This document shows, in pieces, positions 10,003-42,218 of a stretch of 64,000 bases of DNA. The stretch's first letter is position 1, and the number at the start of each line of letters is the position of its first letter. The position numbers and the translations under genes were made by a program. The notes under the pieces were generated by a model that was not told where the DNA came from, did not search any database, and worked only from the letters and a program-made list of their open reading frames with translations. Source of the DNA: Candidatus Komeilibacteria bacterium (GTDB lineage: Bacteria; Patescibacteriota; Patescibacteriia; UBA1558; UBA10009); the NCBI GenBank assembly GCA_026396575.1, contig JAPLWM010000020.1:14266-78265 (forward strand), given 5' to 3'.

Positions 10003-11532
10003 TTAAACAAATCCTATGAATGAACCCTCATTGAACGTCAGTGCCAAGCTGTCCGCGTGGTCAGGCGATTTGCGCGTCCGTTCCTTTAATTTTTCTTTTG
10101 GCTCAAAAATGATTTTCTTTTCACCGGACTGCTGTTTATATTTCATCCAGGTAATCTGCGTCCATTCACCAGCTTGATCCAGCAACCCGCCGTCTTTAAT
10201 CCAAAGGCCTAAGTCCCAAAACAGCTCGGCTTTTTTATTGGCAAACCTTTCATTTTCAACGGCCGAACCGCCGAACGCCACGCCGTTAACGCTGTAGCCA
10301 ATCTCACGCAAGCGGTCCACTACGCCGCCGCCAACGCCCGTGTCATCAATGTTTACCTGGCCGGGGTCAATATCCAAATCCTTAATCAAGGCCTCAATTT
10401 CGTTCACGTTAACCATCGTATCAGCACTTTGGTTCTTGCCAGCCACATAGGCGAATAAGCCCTTGCGTACCACATAAACATTAAAGTCCTTGCCCCTGGC
10501 AATATCCGCGCCCAACTTGGTTGGCGGCATAGAGCCAAGCTCCTTTCTAAGCTCAACCTTTTCTTTTGATAATTTATCAATCTCGTCAAAGGTAATACCT
10601 TTCCGTTTAGATTCCTCGCCTATCGCAACCATGCGCGCTTTAATATCCCGCTCGCGCTGGATCAGCTTCATTACCTCGCCCCTAGCATCGCCGAATTTAA
10701 GCTGGTTACTGGTAACCAGCAAATAATAGCCCTGCTTATCAATCACATCCTCGGGCGGGAATTCGCAGGCAAATAAAATGTTATAAAGCGGTTTAGTCCG
10801 GGCAATAGCCAATTCTTCAGGGTTAGCCCGGCCCTCTTTTAACGCCAGCTCATCGTTAATATAAATTTTGTGGTACAAATCATTGTTCCAATCATTGAAA
10901 AAATGAGTTAAGGGCGGAGCTGAATAAAAAGGGTTGCCAATTTTACAGTATAATTTATCGTCGCCGGTTTTACCGGTAATCATACGGAAGATAGTGGCCT
11001 CAGTGTCGTCCTCAATCAAACCTGCCTCATCCGGAATTACTATCTTAGCGCCTTGACCCATGGCCGCCTCAATGCTTTTCTTGCTGTTCTTTTGGTCAAC
11101 CGATAAAGCAAATATCCCTCCGCCATTCCGCAAAATAATCCTCTGCTTGTTTTCTTCCTGCCTTAACCTTTCCAATTTAGTGTTTTTTTCCAACTGCTTA
11201 TAAAAAATCTCATGATCGCCGATATGCTCAATAAAATAACGCATTGTCAGTTTGGCTTTTTCAGCCGTTGGGGCCACAATGCAAACAACGATTCCCTGTA
11301 CCGCCGCCACGATGATTGCCGCCAAGGCGGTAAATAAAGTTTTGCCGTATTGAGTTAAGCAAATAATTTCAACGAACTTATGGAAGCGAAAAACAATGGC
11401 CGCGAAAATTGCGATTTGACCCTCAGTGGCAACCTGATCGGCCGGCTTGCCATCGATTTTAAAATAGCTTAATAAATGCAAACATGACTCTCTAACTATC
11501 GGGTCAAGTTCTGGTAACGGCGGTTTTAACAT
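10003..11532 (-). CDS. terL: terminase large subunit
   Basis: 509 aa; ATPase N-half with Walker-A-like YGKTL and Walker B VIPDEAG; nuclease-like C-half; directly upstream of the portal, protease and capsid genes. Confidence 0.75.
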   Translation of the reverse strand: MLKPPLPELDPIVRESCLHLLSYFKIDGKPADQVATEGQIAIFAAIVFRFHKFVEIICLTQYGKTLFTALAAIIVAAVQGIVVCIVAPTAEKAKLTMRYFIEHIGDHEIFYKQLEKNTKLERLRQEENKQRIILRNGGGIFALSVDQKNSKKSIEAAMGQGAKIVIPDEAGLIEDDTEATIFRMITGKTGDDKLYCKIGNPFYSAPPLTHFFNDWNNDLYHKIYINDELALKEGRANPEELAIARTKPLYNILFACEFPPEDVIDKQGYYLLVTSNQLKFGDARGEVMKLIQRERDIKARMVAIGEESKRKGITFDEIDKLSKEKVELRKELGSMPPTKLGADIARGKDFNVYVVRKGLFAYVAGKNQSADTMVNVNEIEALIKDLDIDPGQVNIDDTGVGGGVVDRLREIGYSVNGVAFGGSAVENERFANKKAELFWDLGLWIKDGGLLDQAGEWTQITWMKYKQQSGEKKIIFEPKEKLKERTRKSPDHADSLALTFNEGSFIGFV

Positions 11533-12070
11533 TTGAAATTAATTCGTTTAATTTTTCCCGATGATTTGTGATCTCGTCTTTTTCCTCACCATCGCCCTCG
11601 CGCTTAAAGATTGTAGTCGGCTCGCCCAGTTCGGTTTTGATTATTTCCCAGGCAGCCTTTATTTCCTGATAGGTTGGATTTTTAGTTAAGATGACCTTGT
11701 CGCCATTTTTATCGAGCAAAGTTATCTGCCTGGTCTCCAACAGCTTTATTGCTTCCTCGATTGATTTAACCTTGGCCGAAACAAGAATTTGCTGAACCGT
11801 GGAATTATACTCATCAATCCTTTTCTGCCTAATTTCAACTATTCTCGCCTTAAATGCATATAAATCCCTGTAATAATAAAGTTGCGCCGGACTGTGAAAA
11901 TCCGACTCTTGATCACGGCTGATAGCCAAAACATTGCCATTATGCCGGTCGTAAAGCATCAGTAAAAACTCCTGTTCCTCGGGGGTTAAATTGCGATAGG
12001 GGTATTTAAAAACTGTGAAATCCTGTACTTCACCAACCGGCACAATTGCTAAGTTTTGTTTTTCCTCCAT
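11504..12070 (-). CDS. putative terminase small subunit
   Basis: Called by position only: 188 aa gene immediately upstream of the large terminase and overlapping it. Confidence 0.3.
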   Translation of the reverse strand: MEEKQNLAIVPVGEVQDFTVFKYPYRNLTPEEQEFLLMLYDRHNGNVLAISRDQESDFHSPAQLYYYRDLYAFKARIVEIRQKRIDEYNSTVQQILVSAKVKSIEEAIKLLETRQITLLDKNGDKVILTKNPTYQEIKAAWEIIKTELGEPTTIFKREGDGEEKDEITNHREKLNELISNVKTAVTRT

Positions 12071-12195
12071 TGTTTTTATTTTAATAGCTTCCTGACACTG
12101 TTGATTAAATCGTTTAAATCATCGCGCTGGCGGTCAATTTTTTCATTATCACTGACATTCAAATCCGCTCTTGGCTTGTATTTGTCTTTTTGCTC

Positions 12196-12426
12196 CTAGG
12201 TCCAGCCGATAATCTGAATCACATCCACTTCGACCTGGCCAAGCTCCTTTAAAGCTTTCAGCCGGCCGTGGCCGCCTAAAATAACATTGTTTTCGTCAAT
12301 GACAATATCGTCCACGAAACCCAGCTCATCAATACTTTTCTTAATCAGCTGGTCAGCATGAAGCTTAGGATTGCGGTCGTTTTCCTTAAGCTCGCTTATT
12401 TTAATTTTAAGGTGTCGCTTTTCCAT
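12196..12426 (-). CDS. ParB N-terminal domain protein (76 aa)
   Basis: KISELKENDRNPKLHADQLIKKSIDELGFVDDIVIDENNVILGGHGRLKALKELG matches the ParB/Srx fold GxxR signature. Confidence 0.5.
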   Translation of the reverse strand: MEKRHLKIKISELKENDRNPKLHADQLIKKSIDELGFVDDIVIDENNVILGGHGRLKALKELGQVEVDVIQIIGWT

Positions 12427-12433
12427 AAATTTT

Positions 12434-12859
12434 CTACTTTTTACTTTCTCCCTCCCGGTTGATTAATCCCTCCTGCTTTAACTCAAATTGAATTAAGCCG
12501 CGGATCAGCTTAATGTAATCGCTGAATTTCATTTTTTTATAATCAATTCCGAAGTTCCGCATGATGTAGGCCTGCAGTTCGTTGGCTTTTTCGCCCTGCT
12601 TTCTAAAAGCGTCAAAGACATCTTTGTATTTACGCTTTAAGGTTTTACCGGCGTCCGAATCCTCGCCTAAAACAAAAACCTCATCCCAAAGGATTTTTTC
12701 TTTAAGCTTAATCGGCCTGCCCTCGCGCTCCAGCTCAACCTCGTCCTGGCCGTGCTGATCCTGCACTGTCCTTAAACCCTCGGAAGCAAGATACTCAAGA
12801 TCTTCCAGCTCCTTGGTCATCCGGACAATATCGGTTATTTTTTCTTCACTAATTTGCAT
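12434..12859 (-). CDS. hypothetical phage protein
   Basis: 141 aa, charged and helical; no motif. Confidence 0.35.
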   Translation of the reverse strand: MQISEEKITDIVRMTKELEDLEYLASEGLRTVQDQHGQDEVELEREGRPIKLKEKILWDEVFVLGEDSDAGKTLKRKYKDVFDAFRKQGEKANELQAYIMRNFGIDYKKMKFSDYIKLIRGLIQFELKQEGLINREGESKK

Positions 12860-14420
12860 AGATTTTTCCTTTCTTAACCACGCCTCCCTCCAAGGCGATG
12901 GTATAGTTATTTTTATAAATTATCTTTGTTAAATAATGTTTTTCAAGCAGGATTTTTAAAAACTCATTTCGCTTCCGTAAAACCTTGTAATCCGCAGTGT
13001 TGCCGATTTTATTGTGATCAACGGCTGATTCCGGAGTAAAAGCGACTTGCCAATAAGTTTGCGACAGGCGCCAATAAAAATCAGTATGCTCGCCCTCGAT
13101 TTTAATCTTCTCGTCCCAGCGAACATCATTGAATAATTGCCGGCGAAATAACGTAAAATTCATAACCGCGCCCGTTTTTTTATATTTAATATGGTCGCAG
13201 TAATCCCATTGGTCGCCGTCATCAACGTGATATAAAATATCGCCCTCCTGCTTCCAATAATGGCAAAATCTGACCGGGTAACCGTTTTCCAGCACCTCGC
13301 CGCCTAAAGCCCCAATCGTCGGGTTCATTTCCAAAATGGTCATCATTTTATTGATATTGGTTTTATCGGTAAAAACAAAGTCATCCTCAAGCAATAGGAT
13401 GTACGGAGCGGAAGTTTTATTAAGCAAAAAGTTCCTGGCGTAAGACAGGCCGCAATCGTAAGGCAGGTTATAAGCCGTAGGTTTGTTTTTAAAATCAAGC
13501 TTTTTCCAAAGTGCCCGGTAATAGCTGGCATAAAACTTCTTTGACTGGTCAGCAATGAATATCCGGGCCATCGGGTAAAATTCCCTGATGGAAAAAAGCA
13601 ATTTTTCCAGTTGCGGATAGCGGTCAAAAGTAGTTATTAAAAAATCCACTTCCGCCATTTTAGTGCTGTCGTATTCATCTCGTCGGCCGGACATATCAAT
13701 CGTATAGTCCAATTTATATTTTTCATAAAAGGCCTTTTTATCATTCGTCCGGCGGCGATAAAGCAAATAAGTATCGTAATCCGTCTTGGAAATTTTAACC
13801 GGCGGCTTATGCTCTACAATCGGCAAAGGTGAATAGGCCGCTTTAAATCCGGCACGCTTCAAATCAATAAAAAAGGTGCTGTGCTCGTAAGAAATCTTAA
13901 TGCTTTCATCCCACCTGACTTGTTTTAAAACCTCCGTCTTGCCGATGAAAAAATTAAAAGTAATGTCAGCCGGCTGCAACTTAGCACCGTTGTCATTAAG
14001 CTTCCGCCAAATCATATAATTACCGTGATCCTCAATAAAACCTTGATAATCCCTAACCTTGCCGCCCTCGCGCGCGCGCCCACCCACCATGTCAAAATTG
14101 CTATTCTTAATTAGATCCAGCATTAACTCAAGTTTTGCATCCTTGGTATATAAAAAATCATCATCGCCGATTAAGGTATAAGGTGTTTTTATTAAATCAA
14201 CGAGCATATTTCGGCCAACGCAGATACCGCAATCAAACGGCAGATCATAATAATCAGCTTGGTATTTTTGGCAAATGGCTCGTTTAGATTCCGGATCCCC
14301 GCCATTATTGCCGACAATGATATTAATATCAGGGTAAATTTCCCTTAGAGATTTAACGCAAAGCTCAAGGTACTCAATGCGGAAAAACGAAACAATTAAG
14401 GCAGTTAGTTGGTTTTTCAT
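12849..14420 (-). CDS. tandem two-domain family-2 (GT-A) glycosyltransferase
   Basis: Two repeated GT-A units (IVSFFRIEYLELCVKSLREIYPD...IGDDDFLY and FLITTFDRYPQLEKLLFSIREFYP...LLLEDDFVF), each with a DxD or EDD motif. Confidence 0.65.
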   Translation of the reverse strand: MKNQLTALIVSFFRIEYLELCVKSLREIYPDINIIVGNNGGDPESKRAICQKYQADYYDLPFDCGICVGRNMLVDLIKTPYTLIGDDDFLYTKDAKLELMLDLIKNSNFDMVGGRAREGGKVRDYQGFIEDHGNYMIWRKLNDNGAKLQPADITFNFFIGKTEVLKQVRWDESIKISYEHSTFFIDLKRAGFKAAYSPLPIVEHKPPVKISKTDYDTYLLYRRRTNDKKAFYEKYKLDYTIDMSGRRDEYDSTKMAEVDFLITTFDRYPQLEKLLFSIREFYPMARIFIADQSKKFYASYYRALWKKLDFKNKPTAYNLPYDCGLSYARNFLLNKTSAPYILLLEDDFVFTDKTNINKMMTILEMNPTIGALGGEVLENGYPVRFCHYWKQEGDILYHVDDGDQWDYCDHIKYKKTGAVMNFTLFRRQLFNDVRWDEKIKIEGEHTDFYWRLSQTYWQVAFTPESAVDHNKIGNTADYKVLRKRNEFLKILLEKHYLTKIIYKNNYTIALEGGVVKKGKIYAN

Positions 14421-15001
14421 AGTTCGCTGGCAAAAATAAATATGCTATTTTTTGATTTTAAATACTCAATACATTTAACAAACTCCGCGAAACTGGCCAC
14501 GCTCCACATGCTTGGATGAAGCTGGAAAGTAATCACGCCCTCCGGCGCCTCGACTTCGGCCAGCGATCTAACAAACTTCTCGTAATCAACCCCTGTGGGA
14601 TTTTCCAGTACTCCATAGCCATTAACATCGATAATCGGTTTAATCTTTAAAAGATTTTGGTATTGAAAAAATGTTTTTAAATAAAAAACGTGGTGAATTT
14701 CCGGAATTTGCGAAAGGATTTTTATAGTGGTATCGTCGCAAGCATTGGCTGGAAACCCGATTGCCTGGCAGTTAAAATCAAAAACCTGCTTTATGGCCAG
14801 ATTAGTTTTAGTAATGCTTTCCAGCTGATAATCATGATCCGTGCCAAATAATTCCTTTTTAGTTCCGGTAAAAAATCTATGCCCCCAGGAATGGTTAAAC
14901 GGCTCAATAAAATCCTTGTAAGTCAATAACCTCTGCCTTTTTTCGTCAGAGATATTTTCCAGTCCGGCACCGATCACGCCAAGATTAACTTTAATGCCCA
15001 A
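14417..15001 (-). CDS. possible polysaccharide deacetylase-like (CE4-like) protein
   Basis: FNHSWGHR (HSxxH-like) and LHPSMW motifs; N-terminal Asp motif not seen; weak call. Confidence 0.3.
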   Translation of the reverse strand: MGIKVNLGVIGAGLENISDEKRQRLLTYKDFIEPFNHSWGHRFFTGTKKELFGTDHDYQLESITKTNLAIKQVFDFNCQAIGFPANACDDTTIKILSQIPEIHHVFYLKTFFQYQNLLKIKPIIDVNGYGVLENPTGVDYEKFVRSLAEVEAPEGVITFQLHPSMWSVASFAEFVKCIEYLKSKNSIFIFASEL

Positions 15002-15072
15002 ATGAACGATGCCATTTAAAAAATAAAACCATTTCTCGCCTGGCCAAAAGTCATCCGCTTTTAAAATAATTC

Positions 15073-15393
15073 TTATAGATAATTAATTAGTTTATTAATT
15101 TGATGGGCGAAAAAGTGTTCTCTAATTGCCCCGGCGCTTTTTTTCCAATTCGGCAGCATGTAAACTTCATCAACCCGCTTAATAACATCAAAGTCCCGCT
15201 CCATCCACTCCTCGTAAGTTAATAAATTCACATTGATGCCGGTCTCGTTCAGGTGCGGGCTGTAAACAATCAAACCCTGCCTCCAAAGCTTTCGCGCGTA
15301 TTGCCAGGCAACAAGGTAATTCCACAGCTTAAAGCCTGAAAGCTTGCCGGCCAAATAAATCATTTTAAGCTTTTTTTCCATAGTCAACTCCAA
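15073..15393 (-). CDS. nucleoside 2-deoxyribosyltransferase-like fold protein (YLAG motif)
   Basis: MIYLAGKLSG near the N-terminus resembles the Nuc_deoxyrib_tr/DUF4406 family signature; 106 aa. Confidence 0.3.
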   Translation of the reverse strand: MELTMEKKLKMIYLAGKLSGFKLWNYLVAWQYARKLWRQGLIVYSPHLNETGINVNLLTYEEWMERDFDVIKRVDEVYMLPNWKKSAGAIREHFFAHQINKLINYL

Positions 15394-16588
15394 CCCTTAA
15401 ATAAATAATATCTCCGTGCCGGTCCGTATTCAGATACCGGCAAACATAATCAGCTACTACCAATGGCTCCAATAATTCCGTTGCTTCCGGATTAAGCGCC
15501 TGCTGAAGTTTGCCCCTAACCTTTGCCGGCGCGATTGCGTTGATAAAAATACCTTTGCCGGCTAGCTCCACGTGCCTGCTTTGAATTAAAGAATTAAGCG
15601 CGGCCTTGCTCGCAGAATAAATCGGAGTGCCTGGGCGGCCGTAAGCGCCAGCCGTCGATGACAAAAAAACAATGTTGCCTTGCCAGTTTTGTTCCTCGGC
15701 CAATTCAATCAACCTTACGGCTGACCAAAAATTTACCTCCATCATTTCCCAGTCATTTTTGTATGAGCCCGCCGCATAGATAATCGAGCGGAAATCTTTT
15801 AAATTTAAGATTGGTTTATTATTCAAGGTAAAATCAAACGATGATTTTGCGAGGTTAAGCTCCTGACGGCTTGGAGCGCAATAATTATCTAACCTAGCAC
15901 AGCAGGCCTGGCCAATATCCCCTGATCCCCCAAAAACAAGCACCTTACCCCAAAATTCTGCCCCAAGTTGAAGCGGTTGCGCCCAGTTGGCCATAATGCC
16001 CTCGGCAAACCCCAAATCCCGCTCGTACGTGATTTTTGAATTAATCTGCGTACCGTAAACAATGGCCGGTTTAAGCCCTAACAAATCGTAAACCATCGAC
16101 ACTTCATCCTGATAATTTTTAACTCTCAAAGTAAAAGCTTTTCTTAAAATATCTCTAGGAAATCCTTCGGGCGTTAAGCTGATTTGCCTGCCTGTTTTTT
16201 CTTTTGGGAATCCATCCTCTAAATAGCCGTCCACAATATCCACTGCCGTATCAACCGATTTCCAGTCATTCAAAAGCAACTGCTTTAATTCCTCAATCTC
16301 CCGGGCCGTAATAAATGGCCGCACAGCATCATGGAAAATAATAAAATCGCCGGTTGAAGCTTTAAAGCCATTCTCGGCGCTCTCACTCCGGCTGCTTCCT
16401 GGCCGGACTGTTTTATAATTTTTATATTGTTCGTTGGCCACGATGATCACTTCATCAACCAACGGCTCGATTACGTCCAGGCAATACTGAATAACCAGCT
16501 TGCCGTTTAAAGACATGAACTGCTTAGGAATGGTTGAGCCAAAGCGCTCGCCGGATCCGCCGGCCAAAATGATTGCGGTAAATTTCAT
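15365..16588 (-). CDS. bifunctional CDP-ribitol synthase-like protein (TarI/IspD-type cytidylyltransferase fused to TarJ-type short-chain dehydrogenase)
   Basis: N-terminus MKFTAIILAGGSGERFG...PKQF (IspD/TarI nucleotidyltransferase); C-half VLVFGGSGDIGQA ... YSASKAALNSL (SDR Rossmann plus YxxxK). Confidence 0.65.
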   Translation of the reverse strand: MKFTAIILAGGSGERFGSTIPKQFMSLNGKLVIQYCLDVIEPLVDEVIIVANEQYKNYKTVRPGSSRSESAENGFKASTGDFIIFHDAVRPFITAREIEELKQLLLNDWKSVDTAVDIVDGYLEDGFPKEKTGRQISLTPEGFPRDILRKAFTLRVKNYQDEVSMVYDLLGLKPAIVYGTQINSKITYERDLGFAEGIMANWAQPLQLGAEFWGKVLVFGGSGDIGQACCARLDNYCAPSRQELNLAKSSFDFTLNNKPILNLKDFRSIIYAAGSYKNDWEMMEVNFWSAVRLIELAEEQNWQGNIVFLSSTAGAYGRPGTPIYSASKAALNSLIQSRHVELAGKGIFINAIAPAKVRGKLQQALNPEATELLEPLVVADYVCRYLNTDRHGDIIYLRVGVDYGKKA

Positions 16589-16745
16589 AGATTACTTTTT
16601 TATTATTTCTTTTAACTCATCCCAAAATTTAGTAAATTGGTGACTATACTCCCAGGGCTTGATCATTTGGATTAAAAATATCACCAAGATTAAAACCACT
16701 CGTTCCCTTAAATTAAGATAGTCTTTTTCCATTGTTTTAAATGCC

Positions 16746-16961
16746 TTACGGCTTAATTATTTTGTACCCTAATTTATTTAAAGCATCTACCAACTCAACG
16801 ATTAAAGACGTTTTTGGTAGCGCTAAAAATGAATAAATACATTCGTTATCTTTAACGTCTTGCGAACCAGCAGCAACTATTAAGGCCGACATTAAAGCGT
16901 TGCATTGCTCGCCATTTTCGCCCCCAAACATATCGCATTTAAGCTGATTACTGGATGTCAT
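16746..16961 (-). CDS. small hypothetical protein (71 aa)
   Basis: ORF between the CDP-ribitol synthase-like and LicD-like genes; overlaps the LicD gene start. Confidence 0.3.
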   Translation of the reverse strand: MTSSNQLKCDMFGGENGEQCNALMSALIVAAGSQDVKDNECIYSFLALPKTSLIVELVDALNKLGYKIIKP

Positions 16962-17511
16962 ATTTTTCCCTCACTAATTTATTATTTTCCGCGTTATAGC
17001 AGGAGTAATCCCTGCGGTTAACTGGCGTGCGCCAGTCGCCATATTTAAGCGTCAGGTACTCCTCGATGTTCCGTGGCCGGTTAAATAAAGCACCGTGAAA
17101 CTCAATCAGCTCCAGCTCCTCGTAAAAATGAGCCGGGATAACAACGAACTTGTCAATGTTGAAAGTGCCAGGCCGGTAAAGATATGTGTAAGCTTCTTTG
17201 CCATTTTTTTTGTTAAAAAATAAATCTATTTTATAGCCGTCGCGCTTAAAAGCGATTTCCAATTCCCAGCGTCTTTTAACTTCAAAACCTTTTTCAGCGG
17301 CCCGTGCAATCAGCTCGTCAGCCAAAACCATCCAATTGTCCCAGCAACAAAGGTCTACATCATCTTCATCATTGGCGCAAAAGTTATGATCCCGATAAGC
17401 GCCCAGCAAAGTACCGCCATCAAGCCAAAAAACAATCCCGAGCCGGTCAAGAATGTTTTTAAAATCAAGCAGATTTTTTTTAGCGATTTGCTGGCTTGTA
17501 TTTAATTCCAT
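16948..17511 (-). CDS. LicD-family (fukutin-like) phosphotransferase
   Basis: IVFWLDGGTLLGAYRDHNFCANDEDDVDLC: canonical LicD GTLLGAxR plus DxD motifs; 187 aa. Confidence 0.65.
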   Translation of the reverse strand: MELNTSQQIAKKNLLDFKNILDRLGIVFWLDGGTLLGAYRDHNFCANDEDDVDLCCWDNWMVLADELIARAAEKGFEVKRRWELEIAFKRDGYKIDLFFNKKNGKEAYTYLYRPGTFNIDKFVVIPAHFYEELELIEFHGALFNRPRNIEEYLTLKYGDWRTPVNRRDYSCYNAENNKLVREKYDIQ

Positions 17512-17514: not shown

Positions 17515-17862
17515 TTAATTTTCTTTAATAAATTTAATCGCCTCATCTGCGCCTTTACAAACGACCGCCTTAATGCCAGGACAACTCCCCAACGCCTCAA
17601 TCCAGCTTTTCTGAAATTCACTTACTACTCCGCCTTTAACCCGTTTCATTTCAATAAACAACAATCGATTGGCGGGAGAGATAACAATCAAGTCCGGAAG
17701 CCCGGGCCGGAGGCCAAGAGCTTTGTTTCGCATCTTAACCGCCCAGCTCCGGGTAAAGGTTGAATTTGGAATGGCCGTAAATTTTAAGTGCCTCAACTCC
17801 AGATATTCAACCAAAGCTTTTTGCTCGTCGTCTTCCGAACGGATGTAATTATTTTTTTGCAT
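17515..17862 (-). CDS. VRR-NUC domain nuclease
   Basis: PD-(D/E)xK-like PGLPDLIVI...FIEMK block; 115 aa, typical size for phage VRR-NUC. Confidence 0.55.
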   Translation of the reverse strand: MQKNNYIRSEDDEQKALVEYLELRHLKFTAIPNSTFTRSWAVKMRNKALGLRPGLPDLIVISPANRLLFIEMKRVKGGVVSEFQKSWIEALGSCPGIKAVVCKGADEAIKFIKEN

Positions 17863-19270
17863 CCTTGCCGGTAATTAATTTAACAACGCCAATTTTTTTC
17901 CAACTATCATAAGACGGCATTAAAACTTCAATCGTCAGCCTTAATTTTTCCGTGTCATCCAGCTTGGCCGCATTTTCCCTGACACACCTGTCATAATCCA
18001 AATAACCATTGGGCTGATATTGCGTTTTAGTTCTCGGTACTTCCCAACCACGTCTCTTAACGATTGGCCGATACTGGTCAGTGCCCGAATGGAACATGGC
18101 TAATCCAAAGAGAGTATTTAACATTTTACTGTCGATTGGCCACTTTATTGTTTTAAGTAAGTCAGCCGTCGCTTTGTTGTTGCGCTCAATCTTCTTTTTT
18201 TCGTTTTCTTTTTCCTTAAGGAGATCCGCTTTGCGTTTCTTTTCCTCAGCCGGGCTTAATCTGTATTCGGAATGGCTACGCCCATGGGTTTTGCAATCCT
18301 TATTGGAACAAATTAAAATTTCCTTGCCCAAATCATCACCCTCGGCAAAGATAGCGCCATGGGCTGATTCGCATTTATCCTTACCCTTAGCGGCAATAAC
18401 AGCGTATTCGCTCTTAGACAAACAACCCTTGGCCGGCTGGGAATACTCGCTGGAAATTTTAGTCAGCTTAGATTCCTGTTTCCGGTGTTCAATATAAGCC
18501 GTCATTTTCCTTTCCCAGCATTTTAAATTTGTGCAAGCACCCTCTTTAACTTCGCCGAACAATGAAGCGCGCGTCGGCTCGCACTCCTTACACGGACCAA
18601 CAGCGGCCATTAATTCTTTTGATTTCAGCCAGGGCTGATTTTCCAAAGTGGAATAAATATGATCATGAATCCAATCCTTTAAATCCTTAACGCTCATTCC
18701 TCGGCCCCATCTGTCAACGCACTCATTAAGTGCTTTCAGCTGATCATCGTTGGACAACTGGGCAATTAAAACGGCGTGGCCATCGTTAATTTTTCCGGAA
18801 CGATAAGCGTCAGCCGGCTTGGACTCAAGGTTGGTTAAGAATAATCTTTGCTTAACGTACGATTCGGATTTGCCGACCTTGGCCGCAATGGCGCTGATTT
18901 CGTACTTTGATTTTTCCCGAAGCTGGCGGTAGGCCTCGCCCTCTTCCAAAGGATGCACATCTTCACGCTGCAGGTTTTCAACAATCGCGGCTTCTCTTGC
19001 TTCAACGTCATTCATTTCAACAACGTAAACCGGGATCTCTTTTAAGCCAGCCTGTTGAGCTGCCCTAAGCCGACGATTGCCGGCAATAACCTCAAACTGT
19101 TTGGCACCGGCTTTCTTTTCCCGGACCAAAATTGGAACTAACACGCCTTTCTCTTTCACGCTGGCTACTAAATCGTCAAACGCCTGCCCCTCAAACCTGC
19201 TTCCACGGGGATTGGTTTTTGATTCGTAAGCCAAATTGACTAAAACACTTTTCAGATTCATTTTTGACAT
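17849..19270 (-). CDS. ParB-like nuclease domain protein with Cys-rich C-terminal half
   Basis: N-terminus FEVIAGNRRLRAAQQAGLKEIPVYVVEM (ParB/Srx GxxR); C-terminal CxxC clusters. Confidence 0.6.
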   Translation of the reverse strand: MSKMNLKSVLVNLAYESKTNPRGSRFEGQAFDDLVASVKEKGVLVPILVREKKAGAKQFEVIAGNRRLRAAQQAGLKEIPVYVVEMNDVEAREAAIVENLQREDVHPLEEGEAYRQLREKSKYEISAIAAKVGKSESYVKQRLFLTNLESKPADAYRSGKINDGHAVLIAQLSNDDQLKALNECVDRWGRGMSVKDLKDWIHDHIYSTLENQPWLKSKELMAAVGPCKECEPTRASLFGEVKEGACTNLKCWERKMTAYIEHRKQESKLTKISSEYSQPAKGCLSKSEYAVIAAKGKDKCESAHGAIFAEGDDLGKEILICSNKDCKTHGRSHSEYRLSPAEEKKRKADLLKEKENEKKKIERNNKATADLLKTIKWPIDSKMLNTLFGLAMFHSGTDQYRPIVKRRGWEVPRTKTQYQPNGYLDYDRCVRENAAKLDDTEKLRLTIEVLMPSYDSWKKIGVVKLITGKDAKK

Positions 19271-19432
19271 AATGTTTTTTGCCCTAAGGCTTTAATTATT
19301 ATTGATTTTTTATGCATTGCTGTAGTCGACCATTTAGATTGCTTATTTGATTATTTTGGAAAAAAATAATCGTAAAACAAACAGCAAAAAATAAAAGTAA
19401 AATTGAAATAATAAAGTTTTTAAACATAGGAT

Positions 19433-19507: not shown

Positions 19508-19539
19508 GCGAAGTGCCAGGACTTCCTGGCACTAAGTTT

Positions 19540-25915: not shown

Positions 25916-26056
25916 ATTTTCGTGGTTAATTGTTTTTCCCTTAGTCCGCCTGTGGCAATCCCAGCACTCGGGATATTTTTCGCTTTTATGATTTCCGCAC
26001 GCGCAGAGATCCGAGCCATGGGCACAACTAAGACAATTTATATTTTTACATTTCAT
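25898..26056 (-). CDS. possible 52 aa Cys/His-rich small protein overlapping the 5' region of the ATPase gene
   Basis: MKCKNINCLSCAHGSDLCACGNHKSEKYPECWDCHRRTKGKTINHENYDDAD read by hand in an alternative frame; not in the ORF track because it is under 60 aa. Confidence 0.2.
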   Translation of the reverse strand: MKCKNINCLSCAHGSDLCACGNHKSEKYPECWDCHRRTKGKTINHENYDDAD

Positions 26057-26065
26057 TTTAAAGTG

Positions 26066-26248
26066 CTATAATTTAATTAAGTTCTGCTCGTTAGTGTCGC
26101 CGGTTGGCGGCATTGACGAGTTTTTTATTTGTCCGGTTAGGCCGGATACCTCGACCTTGGGCGAGTTGGCATAAGTTGTCCACAGGTCGTAGGAACCCGG
26201 GCCAGAGCTTATGTCCACCTCGCCTAAGGTAGTTATCCCCTTAGACAA
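26066..26248 (-). CDS. small hypothetical protein (60 aa), last ORF of the phage-like block
   Basis: ORF only. Confidence 0.2.
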   Translation of the reverse strand: MSKGITTLGEVDISSGPGSYDLWTTYANSPKVEVSGLTGQIKNSSMPPTGDTNEQNLIKL

Positions 26249-26252
26249 ACAA

Positions 26253-26276
26253 AAAATCCTACTTTCGTAGGATTTT
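26253..26276 (-). terminator. rho-independent terminator of secA
   Basis: aaaatcctac-tttc-gtaggatttt perfect 10 bp hairpin; on the minus strand it is followed by UUUUUUGUUUG, 33 nt after the secA stop. Confidence 0.6.
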
Positions 26277-26308
26277 GAAATTCTGTTGATTTTGCTAAGG
26301 TTTATGCC

Positions 26309-28996
26309 CTATTTCCCATGGCACTTCTTAAATTTTTTGCCGGAACCGCAGTAACATGGATCGTTTCGCCCTATTTTATGGCCGGTCTCATCTTTGGGTT
26401 TTACGGAAATTACTTGAGCCGTGCGGTTTTTTTGATTTTCACCGGCCAATTTTGCTATGCCGCTTTGCTTGTCCAGGGCGGTTTTGGCAGCTCCGGAAAA
26501 AGTTAAATTATTATTAGACATGCCGGAAGCGGCTAAAACCGAGGCTTGGCCCACTTTAAATATAGTATAAACCACCTCGCTTTGAATAGTAGCCAGTAAA
26601 GTTTTAAATAATTGATAAGAGTCCTTTTTATATTCAATTAAGGGATCGCGCTGGCCGTAGCCCCTAAGCCCGATGCCGGTTCTAAGGTGATCAATGGCTT
26701 CCAAGTGTTCCACCCATAAAGTATCAATGGCGTTTAACAATAGGCGGCTTTCAATATTGCGCAAGGTTTCCGCTTGCCCTTCTTCCATGGCTTGGTATTT
26801 TTCTTTAGCCAAAGAAACCAGATATTCGATTAATTCCGCCGCTGTTTGATAAGTGGCGATTTTTTCTTTTTCTTCTTCGGTTAAAATAAAAATGGAATTA
26901 ACGGTTTCTATGATTTCTTTATTGTTTGAGTTATCCGTGGTTTCTTGAGAGAAATGAAAATTAACAACTTGGGTGATTTCCTGTTCCAAATATTCCAAAA
27001 TAACGTTTTTACCGGAAATTTCCTGGTTTAAGATGGCTCGGCGTTTTTTGTAAATCACTTCGCGGTGCTTATTGATCACGTCGTCGTATTCCACCAAATG
27101 TTTGCGGATATCAAAATTATTGCCTTCAACTTTATGCTGGGCCGATTCCAAGGATTTGGAAATCAATTTGTTTTCAATGGGCATGTCTTCCGGCACCCTT
27201 AAGGTGGTCATAATGGATTTAAGCCGTTCGGAGCCGAAAATCCGCATTAAATCGTCGTCCAAGGAAACAAAAAACTGGGAAGAGCCGTTATCCCCTTGCC
27301 GGCCGGATCTGCCTCTTAACTGGTTATCAATGCGCCTGGATTCGTGCCGTTCGGTGCCTAAAATATGCAACCCTCCGACTTCGCGCACCTGGCGCGCTTC
27401 GTCGGCTGAAGCCAGATAGCCTCCTAAAATTATATCCACGCCGCGGCCGGCCATATTGGTGGCCAGGGTTACGGCGCCCCAGCGCCCGGCTTGGGCAATG
27501 ATTTGCGCTTCCCGCTCATGGTTTTTGGCGTTTAACAATTCGTGCTTAATGCCTTCACGGCTAAGCAATTCCGAAAGCACTTCGTTTTTTTCTATGGAAA
27601 TAGTGCCGATCAAGACCGGCTGGCCGGTGCTATGCCGCTTTTTAACTTCGGCCACCACGGCTTTGAATTTGCCCATTTCCGATTTGTAAATCAAATCATT
27701 GAGGTCATGCCTAACCATGGGCTTATTTGTAGGAACAACGGTTACGTCCAAATTGTAGATTTTGGCGAATTCCTCGGATTCGGTGGCGGCCGTGCCGGTC
27801 ATGCCCGAAAGCTTTTTGTACATCCTGAAATAATTCTGGAAAGTGACAGTGGCCATGGTAATGCTTTCCCGCTGGACCTTGACGTTTTCCTTGGCTTCAA
27901 TGGCCTGGTGCAAACCTTCGCTGTATCTTCGGCCGAACATCAAGCGACCGGTAAATTCGTCCACGATAATCACCTCATCATCTTTAACCACGTAATCGCG
28001 ATCCCGCTTGAATAAAGTTTCGGCTTTTAAAGCCGCTTCCAAATGATGGACCATGCCGATGCCGTGCGATTCGTAGATATTTTTTACGCCCAGGGCTTTT
28101 TCGATTTTTTCTATGCCTTTTTCGGTTAAGCTGGCGGCCCGCATTTTTTCGTCAATATTGTAATCGTCATTTTCTTTCAGGTTTTTTACCAAGCGGGCGA
28201 ATTGGAAATACTGGTCGGTTGATTCTTCGGCCGGCGCGCTGATAATTAAAGGCGTGCGGGCTTCGTCGATTAAAATGGAATCAACTTCGTCGATAATGGC
28301 AAAGTTCAAGTCGCGCTGGACCATTTGCCCCAGCGATTGCACCATGTTGTCGCGCAAATAATCAAAACCGTATTCGTTATTGGTGCCGTAGGTAATATCG
28401 GCGGCATAGGCCTCGCGCCGGGGCACCGGTTTTAAATAATTTTCATTGACTACTACGCCGCGGTCGCGTTCGGCTTCGGTCAGTTCCGGCGCCTGATAAC
28501 TGGCATCATATAAGAAGGCCTTTTCATGCTGAACGCAAGCCACGCTTAAACCCAATAAATCATAAATTTGGCCCATCCAAACAGTATCGCGCTTGGCCAA
28601 ATAATCGTTAACGGTAATCACATGAACCCCCTTACCTGAAAGCGCGTTAAGATAGGCCGGCAAGGTGGCGACCATGGTTTTGCCTTCGCCGGTTTTCATT
28701 TCGGCAATCTGACCCTGATGCAGCACAATGCCGCCTAGCAATTGAACATCATAATGACGCTGGTTTAGCGTGCGCTTGGCCGCTTCCCTGACCAAAGCAA
28801 AAGCCAAGGGCAAAATATCGTCCAAAATTTTGCCGCTGGCCAGTTCGGTTTTAAGCTCCTGAGTTTTGGCTTTAAGCTCGTTATTGCTTAACTTTAATAA
28901 ACCCTCTTCCAAAGAGTTGGTTGCTAGAACCAATGGCTCCAAACCTTTTAAATAGCGCTTATTGGCGTCTCCGAAAATTTTATAGATAAATGACAT
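26309..28996 (-). CDS. secA: preprotein translocase ATPase SecA
   Basis: 895 aa; DEAD-like motor motifs; C-terminal zinc-binding CYCGSGKKFKKCHGK. Confidence 0.95.
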   Translation of the reverse strand: MSFIYKIFGDANKRYLKGLEPLVLATNSLEEGLLKLSNNELKAKTQELKTELASGKILDDILPLAFALVREAAKRTLNQRHYDVQLLGGIVLHQGQIAEMKTGEGKTMVATLPAYLNALSGKGVHVITVNDYLAKRDTVWMGQIYDLLGLSVACVQHEKAFLYDASYQAPELTEAERDRGVVVNENYLKPVPRREAYAADITYGTNNEYGFDYLRDNMVQSLGQMVQRDLNFAIIDEVDSILIDEARTPLIISAPAEESTDQYFQFARLVKNLKENDDYNIDEKMRAASLTEKGIEKIEKALGVKNIYESHGIGMVHHLEAALKAETLFKRDRDYVVKDDEVIIVDEFTGRLMFGRRYSEGLHQAIEAKENVKVQRESITMATVTFQNYFRMYKKLSGMTGTAATESEEFAKIYNLDVTVVPTNKPMVRHDLNDLIYKSEMGKFKAVVAEVKKRHSTGQPVLIGTISIEKNEVLSELLSREGIKHELLNAKNHEREAQIIAQAGRWGAVTLATNMAGRGVDIILGGYLASADEARQVREVGGLHILGTERHESRRIDNQLRGRSGRQGDNGSSQFFVSLDDDLMRIFGSERLKSIMTTLRVPEDMPIENKLISKSLESAQHKVEGNNFDIRKHLVEYDDVINKHREVIYKKRRAILNQEISGKNVILEYLEQEITQVVNFHFSQETTDNSNNKEIIETVNSIFILTEEEKEKIATYQTAAELIEYLVSLAKEKYQAMEEGQAETLRNIESRLLLNAIDTLWVEHLEAIDHLRTGIGLRGYGQRDPLIEYKKDSYQLFKTLLATIQSEVVYTIFKVGQASVLAASGMSNNNLTFSGAAKTALDKQSGIAKLAGENQKNRTAQVISVKPKDETGHKIGRNDPCYCGSGKKFKKCHGK

Positions 28997-37748: not shown

Positions 37749-37828
37749 AATGTCGCTTATAAAAAGTTTTTAAAAACAGCAGGGCTATTATAGCAAAATA
37801 TCCGGGAAATGACGAGAGGCCGGATTTA

Positions 37829-37837: not shown

Positions 37838-37865
37838 TTATTCATTAACATTTGTCAATTTGCCT

Positions 37866-42214: not shown

Positions 42215-42218
42215 TTTT

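What the first reader, a model, noticed from the sequence alone, without database searches (positions are those of the whole stretch)
12849..17511. Phage-borne CDP-ribitol and ribitol-phosphate transfer cassette with a tandem GT2
Between the packaging genes and the replication genes of the phage-like block sit six co-directional genes. They encode a two-domain GT-A glycosyltransferase, a possible CE4-like deacetylase, a YLAG-motif protein, a TarI-type cytidylyltransferase fused to a TarJ-type SDR (the architecture of bifunctional CDP-ribitol synthases such as H. influenzae Bcs1), and a canonical LicD-family protein. By established knowledge, LicD-fold enzymes include the ribitol-5-phosphate transferases FKTN and FKRP and the pneumococcal LicD paralogues of teichoic-acid synthesis. 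A CDP-ribitol synthase next to a LicD enzyme therefore predicts ribitol-phosphate decoration of a glycan. A self-contained ribitol-phosphate glycosylation module inside a phage of a small-genome bacterium is unusual. It could modify the host surface (superinfection exclusion or receptor masking) or the virion.
Basis: partly seen in the sequence, partly recalled or inferred. Interest (0 to 1): 0.75.

Follow-up and report, generated by a model that had tools for sequence, protein, structure and literature searches.

The report
Prophage ribitol-phosphate glycan-decoration gene cassette
A virus integrated in the chromosome of a tiny-genome (Patescibacteria) bacterium carries a complete enzyme set that most likely makes CDP-ribitol and attaches ribitol-phosphate and sugars to a still unidentified target, and the same kind of module turns up in many unrelated phages.

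Summary
Window 12849-17511 (minus strand) encodes, in transcription order:
- a compact LicD/FKRP-fold phosphotransferase
- one or two small ORFs
- an IspD-type cytidylyltransferase fused to an SDR reductase (Bcs1 architecture)
- a DUF4406 protein
- a CE4 deacetylase
- a tandem GT2 glycosyltransferase

All catalytic signatures are present. The LicD model matches only FKRP strongly. The CE4 gene is real but starts about 27 codons upstream of the called TTG, at a non-canonical ATA/ATT.

The cassette lies inside a prophage, between replication and packaging genes. Independent assemblies reproduce the prophage's junction with host secA.

The cassette is not unique. One IMG/VR contig carries the same genes in the same order. 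LicD sits next to IspD-SDR in 7 of 12 lineages examined, and in two of them LicD is fused to the GT2. In 49 other viral contigs analysed, LicD usually pairs with a TagD-type cytidylyltransferase instead.

The biochemistry (CDP-alditol synthesis, then alditol-phosphate and sugar transfer) is well supported. Two things remain inferred: that the alditol is ribitol, and what the target is. Candidate targets are a host envelope polymer, virion proteins or, improbably, DNA.

Verdict: a new phage-borne variant of a known bacterial pathway, of moderate interest.

The parts
16948..17511 (-). Compact LicD/FKRP-fold phosphotransferase (187 aa); predicted alditol-phosphate transferase that uses a CDP-donor
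   Evidence: - Pfam LicD: 34.8 bits against a cut-off of 22.6.
- Only significant PDB sequence hit: FKRP 6kaj, E 8.7e-7.
- AlphaFold model pLDDT 96.8. Foldseek top 13 hits are all FKRP, E 2.2e-9, TMq 0.65.
- D48, D51 and D53 are invariant and align with FKRP Asp360/362/364. G32-G33-T34 corresponds to the hG[GS] motif. D96 in 'IDLFF' corresponds to the Asp416 motif.
16746..16961 (-). Small ORF (71 aa), unknown function; overlaps the LicD stop
   Evidence: ORF list. No Pfam, PHROG or NCBIfam hit. Called as a 61-aa gene in identical contigs.
16592..16732 (-). Possible 46-aa ORF filling the gap upstream of the fused enzyme
   Evidence: Gene call at L010 10729-10869, mapped to window coordinates through the 100% identical alignment. 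Not examined further.
15365..16588 (-). Bifunctional IspD/TarI-type cytidylyltransferase (residues 1-205) fused to an SDR reductase (residues 214-407). This is the Bcs1 architecture; predicted CDP-alditol (most likely CDP-ribitol) synthase
   Evidence: - Pfam IspD E 1.5e-26 and adh_short E 1.4e-18.
- PDB sequence hits to IspD and TarI chains and to human ISPD.
- Catalytic residues conserved in a 29-sequence alignment.
- JGI names seven relatives 'ribitol-5-phosphate 2-dehydrogenase / D-ribitol-5-phosphate cytidylyltransferase'.
15073..15393 (-). DUF4406 protein (nucleoside 2-deoxyribosyltransferase-like fold); accessory, role unknown
   Evidence: Pfam DUF4406 E 5.7e-17. phrog_355 E 8.5e-27. 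Absent from other cassettes. The syntenic locus L126 has an unrelated 142-aa ORF at this position.
14417..15076 (-). CE4 (NodB-fold) deacetylase, about 219 aa. The start is re-called at ATA 15076-15074 (or ATT 15070/15067) and overlaps the DUF4406 stop codon
   Evidence: - 313 relatives by exhaustive HMMER.
- Relatives begin 'MKIILKxDDF', and the window frame is open and reads RIILKADDFW.
- Relatives match Polysacc_deac_1 (12 of 26) and DUF2334 (9 of 26).
- AlphaFold model pLDDT 96.9. Foldseek top hits are CE4 esterases and peptidoglycan deacetylases, E 1e-9.
- D8-D9, H62, H66 and H187 are conserved.
12849..14420 (-). Tandem two-domain GT-A (GT2) glycosyltransferase (523 aa), soluble
   Evidence: - Pfam Glycos_transf_2, two stretches, E 1e-21.
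- DDD at residues 86-88 and EDD at 345-347; no transmembrane segment.
- Domain 1 matches human B4GALNT1 (9h6j), E 3.1e-17.
- 51% identical homologue at the same cassette position in L126.
- Homologous GT2 fused to LicD in L022 and L023.
17515..19270 (-). Upstream phage genes ParB (17849-19270) and VRR-NUC (17515-17862). They run straight into the cassette, with only 3 nt between the VRR-NUC stop and the LicD start
   Evidence: Pfam ParB_N E 5.3e-23, HTH_ParB, VRR_NUC E 1e-10. Coordinates.
10003..12859 (-). Downstream phage genes. A 141-aa ORF overlaps the GT2 stop. It is followed by a small ParB-like ORF (assigned by eye; no Pfam hit), a putative small terminase (assigned by position only) and the large terminase
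   Evidence: TerL phrog_2 E 5.4e-14. Coordinates.
26026..26345 (.). Junction between the prophage and host secA. It contains the secA terminator at 26276-26253 and a possible att region at the last secA codons
   Evidence: SecA at 26309-28996. The junction is reproduced at 100% identity in Logan assemblies from four other runs, and two further contigs end at 26345 and 26335. Terminator.

Best explanation
The cassette is a self-contained, cytoplasmic glycan-decoration module carried by a prophage of a Patescibacteria (Komeilibacteria) host.

Step 1 (inferred from architecture and conserved catalytic residues). The fused enzyme reduces a ketopentose-5-phosphate, most likely ribulose-5-phosphate, with NAD(P)H in its SDR domain. 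Its IspD/TarI domain then activates the alditol-5-phosphate with CTP. The product is a CDP-alditol, most likely CDP-ribitol, as with H. influenzae Bcs1.

Step 2 (inferred from fold, active-site motifs and conserved adjacency or fusion). The compact FKRP-like LicD enzyme transfers alditol-phosphate from that donor onto a sugar hydroxyl. This forms a phosphodiester and releases CMP.

Step 3 (inferred). The two GT-A domains add one or two sugars, possibly HexNAc. The CE4 enzyme removes an acetyl group from the product.

Target and timing. All the enzymes are soluble, so the acceptor must be reachable in the cytoplasm. My marginally favoured target is a lipid-linked or nascent host cell-envelope glycopolymer. 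Modifying it would change the cell surface, giving receptor masking or superinfection exclusion. The cassette is packed without gaps into the phage's long replication-to-packaging gene array, so it is probably expressed with the lytic programme rather than as an independent lysogenic-conversion gene.

Status of the parts. Shown: gene content, folds, motifs, prophage location and recurrence in other phages. Inferred: the substrates and the target.
For: **Domains and motifs**
- Domain assignments.
- Catalytic residues conserved across relatives: IspD-SDR, LicD, CE4.

**Structures**
- The LicD model matches FKRP. Its acidic residues correspond to FKRP's experimentally essential Asp360/362/364/416.
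- The CE4 model matches CE4 deacetylases.

**Precedent for the chemistry**
- Bcs1 converts ribulose-5-P, NADPH and CTP into CDP-ribitol (PMC10299916).
- JGI names seven relatives of the fused enzyme as the bifunctional ribitol-5-P dehydrogenase/cytidylyltransferase.

**Functional linkage between the genes**
- LicD is adjacent to IspD-SDR in 7 of 12 lineages examined.
- LicD is fused to the homologous GT2 directly after IspD-SDR in L022 and L023.
- L126 carries LicD, IspD, SDR, a variable ORF, CE4 and the tandem GT2 in the same order.
- Deacetylases recur in such cassettes: PIG-L in L023 and next to LicD in 3 other loci.
- In 49 other viral loci, LicD neighbours are chiefly cytidylyltransferases and GT2s. 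This fits the logic of a CDP-donor maker paired with a LicD transferase.

**Location and host**
- Prophage context and host junction.
- No transmembrane segments in any cassette protein.
- Host lineage is Patescibacteria.
Against: - No enzyme activity has been measured.
- Sequence does not separate ribitol-5-P cytidylyltransferases from MEP cytidylyltransferases. IspD chains score slightly better than TarI chains, and all NCBIfam matches are below their cut-offs.
- An IspD enzyme plus an SDR can also make CDP-arabinitol (S. pneumoniae AbpA/AbpB, from memory).
- FKRP is the only solved LicD-family structure. The structural match therefore shows family membership, not ribitol specificity.
- The host-surface reading has weaknesses. 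There is no flippase and no membrane glycosyltransferase. No separate promoter or terminator was found around the cassette. In other phages the module sits inside or next to structural genes.
- The CE4 gene lacks a canonical start codon and may be poorly expressed.
Confidence: 0.6

Rival explanations
1. Same chemistry, different target. The cassette glycosylates the phage's own virion proteins (capsid, tail tube or fibres) in the cytoplasm during late infection. This would give particles a sugar and alditol-phosphate coat that affects stability, adsorption or recognition.
For: - All enzymes are soluble and the module supplies its own donor.
- The cassette is embedded, without detectable promoter or terminator, in the gene array that runs into the terminase, portal and capsid genes.
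- In L041 the LicD/IspD-SDR/GT module sits inside the head module, between terminase/portal-side genes and the head-tail adaptor.
- In L004 and L040 it sits between tail genes and the endolysin.
- Two LicD loci have a capsid gene as second neighbour.
- Phage glycosyltransferases are cited as glycosylating mycobacteriophage virions in papers listed (those papers were not read further).
Against: - No alditol-phosphate modification of a virion protein is known.
- The tandem GT2 is not similar to GTs of cultured mycobacteriophages; the only hits in cultured phages are Salinibacter phages.
- Phages that share the LicD and IspD-SDR genes have unrelated structural proteins, so a common protein acceptor is not evident.
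- Bacterial LicD enzymes act on lipid-linked glycopolymers (established knowledge).
Confidence: 0.25
2. The cassette hypermodifies phage DNA. A glycan and alditol-phosphate chain would be built on a base to block restriction, as suspected for the IspD-SDR-containing cluster of Yersinia phage YerA41.
For: - The only cultured phages with a full-length IspD-SDR fusion are YerA41 and vB_Yru_GN1.
- In YerA41 the fusion lies next to the DNA polymerase, in a cluster with a CE4-like esterase, GTs and SDRs. YerA41 thymidine carries a phosphate-containing modification of about 1 kDa built in 184-Da steps.
- In the window the cassette directly follows ParB and VRR-NUC and contains a nucleoside-deoxyribosyltransferase-fold protein.
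- The Flandersviridae licD+ispD pair sits in the replication module.
Against: - The window's part of the phage has no DNA polymerase, thymidylate-synthase-like hydroxymethylase, dNMP kinase or base-exchange enzyme that could provide an attachment point.
- The YerA41 enzyme is only 24% identical, and its CE4-like protein is unrelated to the window's.
- No LicD or GT2 enzyme is known to act on DNA.
Confidence: 0.05
3. The donor is not CDP-ribitol. The fused enzyme would make another CDP-alditol (arabinitol from xylulose-5-P, erythritol from erythrose-4-P, mannitol, or similar), or would reduce after cytidylylation as in the AbpA/AbpB route. The rest of the mechanism is unchanged.
For: - Sequence gives no substrate discrimination within the IspD family.
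- The phage clade is a compact form (375-407 aa), distinct from the 415-440-aa group.
- LicD partners in other phages use different donors: TagD-type cytidylyltransferase in 17+8 neighbours and PEP mutase in 4+2. This shows the family's donor plasticity.
Against: The only biochemically characterised IspD-SDR fusion (Bcs1) makes CDP-ribitol. KO-based names of relatives point to the same activity.
Confidence: 0.3

Closest known systems
H. influenzae Bcs1 (bifunctional CDP-ribitol synthase); two-protein equivalents TarI/TarJ of S. aureus and S. pneumoniae
   Same: An N-terminal IspD/TarI-family cytidylyltransferase and a C-terminal SDR reductase in one chain, with all catalytic motifs. The Bcs1 reaction is documented in PMC10299916.
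   Different: - The phage enzyme is shorter (407 aa; its clade is 375-407 aa), with deletions in both domains relative to the 415-440-aa relatives.
- It could not be compared directly with the Bcs1 sequence.
- It feeds a LicD-type transferase, not a TagF-like one.
- It can occur as two separate genes (L126).
Mammalian ISPD (CRPPA) / FKTN / FKRP ribitol-phosphate pathway
   Same: An IspD-family CDP-ribitol synthase is paired with LicD-fold ribitol-phosphate transferases that act on a HexNAc-containing glycan. FKRP is the best sequence and structure match of the window LicD. The GT2 domain's only PDB sequence match is the GalNAc transferase B4GALNT1.
   Different: - The phage LicD is the bare catalytic domain (187 aa), without FKRP's stem domain or zinc finger.
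- It is cytoplasmic, not in the Golgi lumen.
- Identity is only about 24%.
Pneumococcal tarI-tarJ plus LicD paralogues, and LicD-family phosphotransferases of capsule and O-antigen loci
   Same: The same logic: a cytidylyltransferase makes a CDP-donor and a LicD enzyme transfers the phospho-group onto a glycan repeat unit (established knowledge).
   Different: - Here the genes lie in a phage.
- No Und-P priming transferase, flippase, polymerase or ligase is present in the cassette.
- The reductase is SDR-type rather than MDR-type (TarJ, from memory).
licD + ispD gene pair in 'Flandersviridae' gut phages (Benler et al. 2021, PMC8008677)
   Same: A phage-borne adjacent LicD-family and IspD-family pair, inserted near replication genes and present in only some members.
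   Different: - The authors read the two genes separately, as phosphocholine transfer and isoprenoid synthesis.
- No SDR, GT2 or CE4 was described.
- The gut-phage IspD hits in GenBank cover only the N-terminal domain.
Prophage-encoded wall-teichoic-acid glycosyltransferase TarP of S. aureus; Gtr seroconversion cassettes
   Same: Temperate-phage genes that re-decorate a host envelope glycopolymer and alter phage or immune recognition. TarP is a GT-A enzyme acting on ribitol-phosphate polymer (from memory).
   Different: TarP uses host-made donors and a host polymer. The Gtr systems need membrane proteins. The window cassette brings its own donor synthesis and has no membrane component.
YerA41 thymidine-hypermodification gene cluster
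   Same: Contains an IspD-SDR fusion adjacent to a CE4-like esterase and glycosyltransferases.
   Different: - 24% identity.
- KpsC-like rather than GT2/LicD transferases.
- It lies beside a dedicated DNA polymerase in a 145-kb lytic phage.

Membership tests
Bcs1-type bifunctional CDP-ribitol synthase | N-terminal IspD/TarI-family cytidylyltransferase domain with a Gly-rich loop plus Arg, a catalytic Lys, HDxxRP and a K-x-T motif | tested here: met
   Pfam IspD E 1.5e-26 over residues 4-200. G11, R15, K22, R90-P91 and K185-T187 are invariant in 29 relatives. PDB sequence hits to IspD and TarI chains.
Bcs1-type bifunctional CDP-ribitol synthase | C-terminal SDR reductase domain with a dinucleotide-binding Gly motif and the N-S-Y-K catalytic tetrad, in the same polypeptide | tested here: met
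   adh_short E 1.4e-18, though only the C-terminal half of the profile is matched. G220xxG223xxG226, N286, S311, Y324 and K328 are conserved.
Bcs1-type bifunctional CDP-ribitol synthase | Catalyses ribulose-5-P + NADPH + CTP -> CDP-ribitol | not testable with these tools
   Only indirect evidence: the Bcs1 reaction (PMC10299916) and JGI KO-derived names of seven relatives. NCBIfam 'D-ribitol-5-phosphate cytidylyltransferase' scores 64.5 bits against a cut-off of 166.
LicD family (PF04991) / FKRP-type phosphotransferase | Match to the family profile above the curated threshold | tested here: met
   34.8 bits against a cut-off of 22.6, in two stretches. 82 relatives found, most carrying PF04991.
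LicD family (PF04991) / FKRP-type phosphotransferase | Nucleotidyltransferase fold with hG[GS], D-x-D(-x-D) and a third catalytic Asp | tested here: met
   - Model pLDDT 96.8; FKRP E 2.2e-9 over about 180 columns; the next family, ANT(2''), reaches only E 2.5e-5 over half the length.
- G32-G33-T34, and invariant D48/D51/D53 aligned to FKRP Asp360/362/364.
- D96 corresponds to Asp416 by motif only; the HMMER alignment is shifted there.
LicD family (PF04991) / FKRP-type phosphotransferase | Canonical full-length architecture (about 260 aa bacterial LicD, or FKRP with stem domain) | tested here: not met
   187 aa. The Pfam profile (227 positions) is covered in two pieces. The phage clade is uniformly about 180 aa. 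I therefore call it a compact LicD-fold enzyme, not a canonical LicD.
LicD family (PF04991) / FKRP-type phosphotransferase | Transfers a phospho-alcohol from a CDP-donor to a glycan | not testable with these tools
   Supported only by conserved adjacency or fusion with cytidylyltransferases and GT2s.
GT2 (GT-A fold) glycosyltransferase, tandem | Two GT-A domains, each with a DxD-type motif | tested here: met
   Two Glycos_transf_2 stretches. DDD at 86-88 and EDD at 345-347. Both halves hit the same GT2s in L022 and L023. Match to B4GALNT1, E 3.1e-17.
Carbohydrate esterase family 4 (NodB homology domain) | Deformed (beta/alpha) barrel with an Asp-Asp motif, H-S-x-x-H and L-x-H motifs | tested here: met
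   Met only after re-calling the start. D8-D9 ('KADDF'), N61-H62-S63-x-x-H66 and Q185-L-H187-P188 are conserved. Foldseek gives CE4 enzymes at E 1e-9, TM 0.67-0.78. The protein itself has no Pfam hit; 12 of the 26 sequences scanned (the window ORF plus 25 relatives) do.
Integrated prophage | Phage structural, packaging and replication genes contiguous with host chromosome; the junction is reproducible | tested here: met
   Phage genes. Host genes secA, mur, ftsW, mraY, dnaK and others. The junction is 100% identical in Logan assemblies from four other sequencing runs.
Integrated prophage | Integrase and att repeats | tested here: inconclusive
   No integrase in the window. The other phage end lies beyond the window and beyond L007. 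No repeat of the junction was found in reachable sequence. Contig ends at 26335 and 26345 hint at an att core.
Lysogenic-conversion (seroconversion) moron | Autonomous expression unit (own promoter and terminator) and/or membrane-embedded transferases or a flippase | tested here: not met
   Promoter-like and terminator-like sites are at or below shuffle expectation, and none brackets the cassette. Genes abut or overlap their phage neighbours. No transmembrane segment. This weakens membership of the class, not the possibility of host-surface modification.
Phage DNA hypermodification cluster | Accompanying base-hydroxymethylase, dNMP kinase, dedicated polymerase or base-exchange enzyme | tested here: not met
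   None found among the phage genes in the window. Several small ORFs remain unannotated, and part of the phage lies outside the window.

The most novel reading that the evidence does not exclude
The module builds a teichoic-acid-like sugar and alditol-phosphate decoration on the phage particle itself, or much less likely on its DNA, rather than on the host. It would also be one flavour of a widespread, undescribed phage system. In that system a compact LicD-fold transferase is paired with an interchangeable donor-making enzyme (IspD-SDR, TagD-like cytidylyltransferase or PEP mutase) and with GT2 enzymes. The result would be phosphodiester-linked coats on virions.
Probability: 0.25. Interest if true: 0.8.

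Novelty: new variant of a known kind. Interest (0 to 1): 0.55.

Why it matters
If the prediction holds, phages of ultra-small Patescibacteria, and many other uncultured phages, carry a complete portable route to alditol-phosphate-containing glycans. That chemistry is so far associated with Gram-positive teichoic acids, capsules and mammalian dystroglycan.

- It would give a concrete, testable meaning to the ispD and licD genes previously noted in gut phages but read as isoprenoid and phosphocholine functions.
- It would supply very compact (about 180 aa) FKRP-like enzymes for structural and biotechnological work on ribitol-phosphate transfer.
- It would open the question of whether phages use phosphodiester glycans to remodel host receptors or to coat their own particles.
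- The wider census suggests a general phage module class that has not been described: LicD next to TagD-like cytidylyltransferases, PEP mutase and GT2s in dozens of viral contigs.

Tried and rejected
- **Single-protein scans of IMG/VR.** Scans with the fused enzyme, LicD and TerL found nothing. Alignment-based scans were needed.
- **Word-indexed homology search for the 194-aa ORF.** It found only itself. The exhaustive HMMER search solved it.
- **Genome-contig scan with the IspD-SDR alignment.** It was uninformative.
- **JGI metagenome scan with TerL.** No relative found. The CE4 alignment was too divergent for a scan.
- **Homology between the window CE4 and YerA41_150.** Tested and rejected (E 1.8).
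- **Search for att repeats** between the secA junction and the reachable left-hand phage sequence. Only chance 11-13-mers were found.
- **Promoter and terminator scan.** Nothing above shuffle expectation around the cassette.
- **Tandem GT2 against cultured phages.** Only Salinibacter phage hypothetical proteins; no link to known virion-glycosylating GTs.
- **Literature searches** for phage CDP-ribitol synthases or LicD-cytidylyltransferase modules. Only the Benler 2021 remark was found. Nothing is known about DUF4406.
- **Idea considered, not supported.** DUF4406 as a CMP N-glycosidase that recycles CMP to ribose-5-P for the pathway. It is attractive, but the gene is not conserved in other cassettes.

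Full report
**1. Observation**

The minus strand of window 12849-17511 carries a tight array of ORFs. Pfam assigns the following:
- two Glycos_transf_2 stretches to 12849-14420 (E 1e-21)
- DUF4406 to 15073-15393 (E 5.7e-17)
- IspD (E 1.5e-26) plus adh_short (E 1.4e-18) to 15365-16588
- LicD (34.8 bits against a cut-off of 22.6) to 16948-17511

The 194-aa ORF at 14417-15001 and the 71-aa ORF at 16746-16961 have no hits. No cassette protein has a hydrophobic stretch long enough for a membrane span.

**2. The CE4 gene and its start**

A word-indexed search found only the protein itself. An exhaustive HMMER search found 313 relatives. These are typically 220-235 aa and begin 'MKIILKxDDF'. The called window ORF lacks those roughly 27 residues.

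The same frame is, however, open upstream and reads R-I-I-L-K-A-D-D-F-W. The reading begins at an ATA codon (15076-15074) that overlaps the TAA stop of the DUF4406 gene, giving the sequence 'ATAA'. Two ATT codons follow.

Supporting evidence for the extended gene:
- The syntenic homologue in L126 begins with ATG at the equivalent place ('MKKVTLKIDDFW').
- Of 26 sequences scanned (the window ORF plus 25 relatives), 12 match Polysacc_deac_1 and 9 match DUF2334.
- The extended protein models at pLDDT 96.9. Its best structural matches are CE4 acetylxylan esterases and peptidoglycan GlcNAc deacetylases (E 1e-9).
- The Asp-Asp, H-S-x-x-H and L-H-P motifs are conserved.

The 'possible CE4-like deacetylase' is thus confirmed. 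The gene has a non-canonical start, the same in every assembly. It may be translated by coupling to the upstream gene.

**3. The two key enzymes**

*Fused enzyme.* It matches IspD and TarI chains and human ISPD in the PDB through its N-terminal half, and FabG-like SDRs through its C-terminal half. In an alignment of 29 relatives the following are invariant or nearly so:
- cytidylyltransferase residues G11, R15, K22, R90-P91 and K185-T187
- SDR residues G220/G223/G226, N286, S311, Y324 and K328

This is the architecture of Bcs1, which reduces ribulose-5-P with NADPH and activates it with CTP to CDP-ribitol (PMC10299916). JGI's own names for seven relatives say the same. Sequence alone does not separate ribitol-5-P from MEP or other alditol-phosphate specificity. 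The fusion to a reductase is what argues against an isoprenoid role.

*LicD protein.* It is a compact 187-aa form.
- Its only significant PDB sequence match is FKRP (E 8.7e-7).
- Its model (pLDDT 96.8) has FKRP as the top 13 Foldseek hits (E 2.2e-9, about 180 aligned columns). Other nucleotidyltransferases trail at E 2.5e-5 or worse over half the length.
- The invariant D48, D51 and D53 align with FKRP Asp360/362/364.
- G32-G33-T34 corresponds to the hG[GS] motif.
- D96 ('IDLFF') corresponds by motif to Asp416 ('VDLW'). All four Asp residues are experimentally essential in FKRP.

**4. Phage or host?**

Downstream of the cassette lie a putative small terminase, TerL, portal, protease, major capsid protein, a fibre-like protein and a head-tail adaptor. 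Upstream lie VRR-NUC, ParB, a tRNA-Met, an exonuclease, a lytic transglycosylase, SSB and an AAA_24 ATPase.

From 26309 onwards the window is ordinary chromosome: secA, murB/C/G/D, ftsW, mraY, type IV pilus genes, dnaX, dnaK and dnaJ. NCBI assigns the 98-kb contig to a Candidatus Komeilibacteria MAG in the Patescibacteria/Parcubacteria group.

The phage-secA junction is reproduced at 100% identity in Logan assemblies of four other sequencing runs. Two further contigs end within the last secA codons, which may mark the att core. Identical contigs extend the phage at least 9.5 kb beyond the window's left edge into tail genes.

The cassette is therefore inside an integrated prophage. No integrase or att repeat was reachable.

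**5. Relatives elsewhere**

The fused enzyme has about 76 full-length relatives at 44-58% identity, all metagenomic. Every context examined for these close relatives (L001-L006, L040, L041) was phage-like, with terminase, Rad52, endolysin and tail genes. Those phages share no other gene with the window phage. IMG/VR holds nine contigs with a full-length fusion.

LicD is adjacent to the fusion in 7 of 12 lineages examined. The two homologue lists share at least 12 contig lengths.

Two findings tie the parts together:
- In L022 and L023, LicD is fused to a GT2 domain homologous to the window's tandem GT2, immediately after IspD-SDR. L023 continues with a PIG-L de-N-acetylase and more GT2s.
- IMG/VR contig L126 carries the same cassette in the same order:
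  - a homologue of window gene 20462-20890 (64% identity)
  - LicD (45%)
  - IspD and SDR as separate ORFs
  - an unrelated 142-aa ORF where the window has DUF4406
  - CE4 (36%)
  - the tandem GT2 (51% over 449 aa)

The core is thus LicD + IspD/SDR + CE4 + tandem GT2. The fusion is optional and DUF4406 is accessory.

**6. A wider pattern**

A scan with the LicD alignment found 53 viral contigs. Only two of them have an IspD gene nearby. A Pfam census of LicD's neighbours in the 49 loci where the LicD ORF could be delimited gave these counts:

| Family | First neighbours | Second neighbours |
|---|---|---|
| TagD-type CTP_transf_like | 17 | 8 |
| GT2 | 11 | 14 |
| PEP mutase | 4 | 2 |
| Class-I methyltransferases | 5-8 | 3-4 |
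| NeuB | 3 | - |
| PIG-L | 3 | - |
| TPP enzymes | - | 3 |
| Radical SAM | - | 4 |

The recurring design is a CDP-donor maker, a LicD transferase and GT2s, with interchangeable donors. The window is the IspD-SDR flavour.

I found no paper describing this. Benler et al. 2021 noted one licD+ispD insertion in 'Flandersviridae' and read the two genes separately. Work on CPR viruses mentions glycosyltransferases only generically, as cell-surface modification genes.

**7. Mechanism and target**

The chemistry in the best explanation follows from sections 3, 5 and 6. The target is unresolved.
- *For a host envelope polymer:* the phage is integrated, bacterial LicD enzymes act on lipid-linked polymers, and prophage TarP is a precedent (from memory).
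- *Against it, and for virion glycosylation:* there is no membrane component. No autonomous promoter or terminator was found. Genes abut VRR-NUC upstream and overlap the gene array leading to the terminase. In other phages the module sits inside or beside structural genes.
- *A DNA target:* this is suggested only by analogy. The sole cultured phages with an IspD-SDR fusion, YerA41 and its relative, have a phosphate-containing thymidine hypermodification of about 1 kDa, and the fusion lies in the cluster beside their polymerase. However, identity is 24%, and the window phage shows no enzyme that would create an attachment point.

My estimates for the target are: host envelope about 0.45, virion about 0.25-0.3, DNA about 0.05, and the remainder unknown.

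**8. Verdict**

Its interest lies in three things: the conserved, mobile, compact enzyme set; the reinterpretation of published phage ispD and licD genes; and the open question of what phages decorate with phosphodiester-linked alditols.

Noticed in passing
window 15065-15076 (minus strand): The CE4 gene has no canonical start codon where its relatives start. The frame begins at ATA (15076-15074), overlapping the TAA stop of the DUF4406 gene ('ATAA'), followed by two ATT codons. The first canonical start (TTG at 15001) would delete the catalytic Asp-Asp strand. The sequence is identical in the one independent assembly that spans this region (L010).
   Followed up: yes
L039 (Yersinia phage YerA41, MW570730, 85999-103324); PMC9023294, PMC12686479: YerA41's unexplained thymidine hypermodification grows in 184-Da steps and contains phosphate. 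By my arithmetic a tetritol-phosphate residue (C4H9O6P) weighs 184.01 Da, ribitol-phosphate 214.02 and glycerol-phosphate 154.00. YerA41_151 is an IspD-SDR fusion in the cluster beside the DNA polymerase. The chain may therefore be poly(erythritol/threitol-phosphate) made from a CDP-tetritol. This is speculative and rests on nominal masses only.
   Followed up: partly
L124-L176 (IMG/VR contigs): Compact LicD-family genes occur in 53 viral contigs. They mostly sit next to TagD-type cytidylyltransferases, GT2s and methyltransferases. In six neighbour positions they sit next to PEP mutase (with TPP enzymes), which suggests phage-borne glycerol-phosphate-type and phosphonate decoration modules. 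Several LicD ORFs are long fusions (about 910 aa in L129 and L130; 405-529 aa in L127, L144, L145, L158 and L171).
   Followed up: partly
L022 11299-13086; L023 5731-7299: Single polypeptides fuse an N-terminal LicD domain to a GT2 domain, directly downstream of IspD-SDR. L023 continues with a PIG-L deacetylase, a WbqC-like protein and two or three more GT2 genes.
   Followed up: yes
window 26026-26345: The prophage abuts the 3' end of secA. The secA terminator (26276-26253) lies between secA and the first phage gene. Two independent contigs end at 26335 and 26345, inside the last secA codons. This may mark the attachment-site core, with integration into the secA 3' end.
   Followed up: partly
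window 19433-19507: A tRNA-Met (CAT) gene lies inside the prophage, between ParB and the exonuclease gene. The 122-aa ORF 19299-19667 overlapping it is probably spurious.
   Followed up: no
window 1739-2614: A sigma-factor-like gene (phrog_351, E 2.5e-32; faint Sigma70_r2) sits among the phage structural genes, between a fibre-like gene and the head-tail adaptor.
   Followed up: no
window 9555-9528 (minus strand): A perfect sigma-70 consensus (TTGACA, 16 nt spacer, TG, TATAAT; 12 of 12 matches) lies in the 666-nt gap between the terminase and portal genes. It is the only strong promoter-like site in the phage region scanned.
   Followed up: no
L026, L027, L031-L036 (IMG/VR): A group of viral contigs encodes a TerL 35-37% identical to the C-terminal part of the window TerL. 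Within 1-3 kb they also carry an SDR-like gene 31-36% identical to residues 263-387 of the fused enzyme. These may be distant relatives of the window phage with a different sugar-modifying gene.
   Followed up: no
window 37809-45857 and 49098-51791: The host region carries a type IV pilus/T2SS-like gene set (T2SSE ATPase, T2SSF) and an 897-aa TrwB/HerA-like ATPase. This fits the surface-appendage-rich lifestyle of Patescibacteria. A tRNA-Gln lies at 46057-46130.
   Followed up: no
L001-L003, L016-L019: In one family of 38-kb phages the IspD-SDR gene has no LicD neighbour. Instead it is followed by a 417-aa class-I methyltransferase-like protein. Elsewhere these phages carry a methyltransferase-GT2 fusion and a faint TOD1/MUCI70-like protein. 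A different transferase may use the CDP-alditol there.
   Followed up: no
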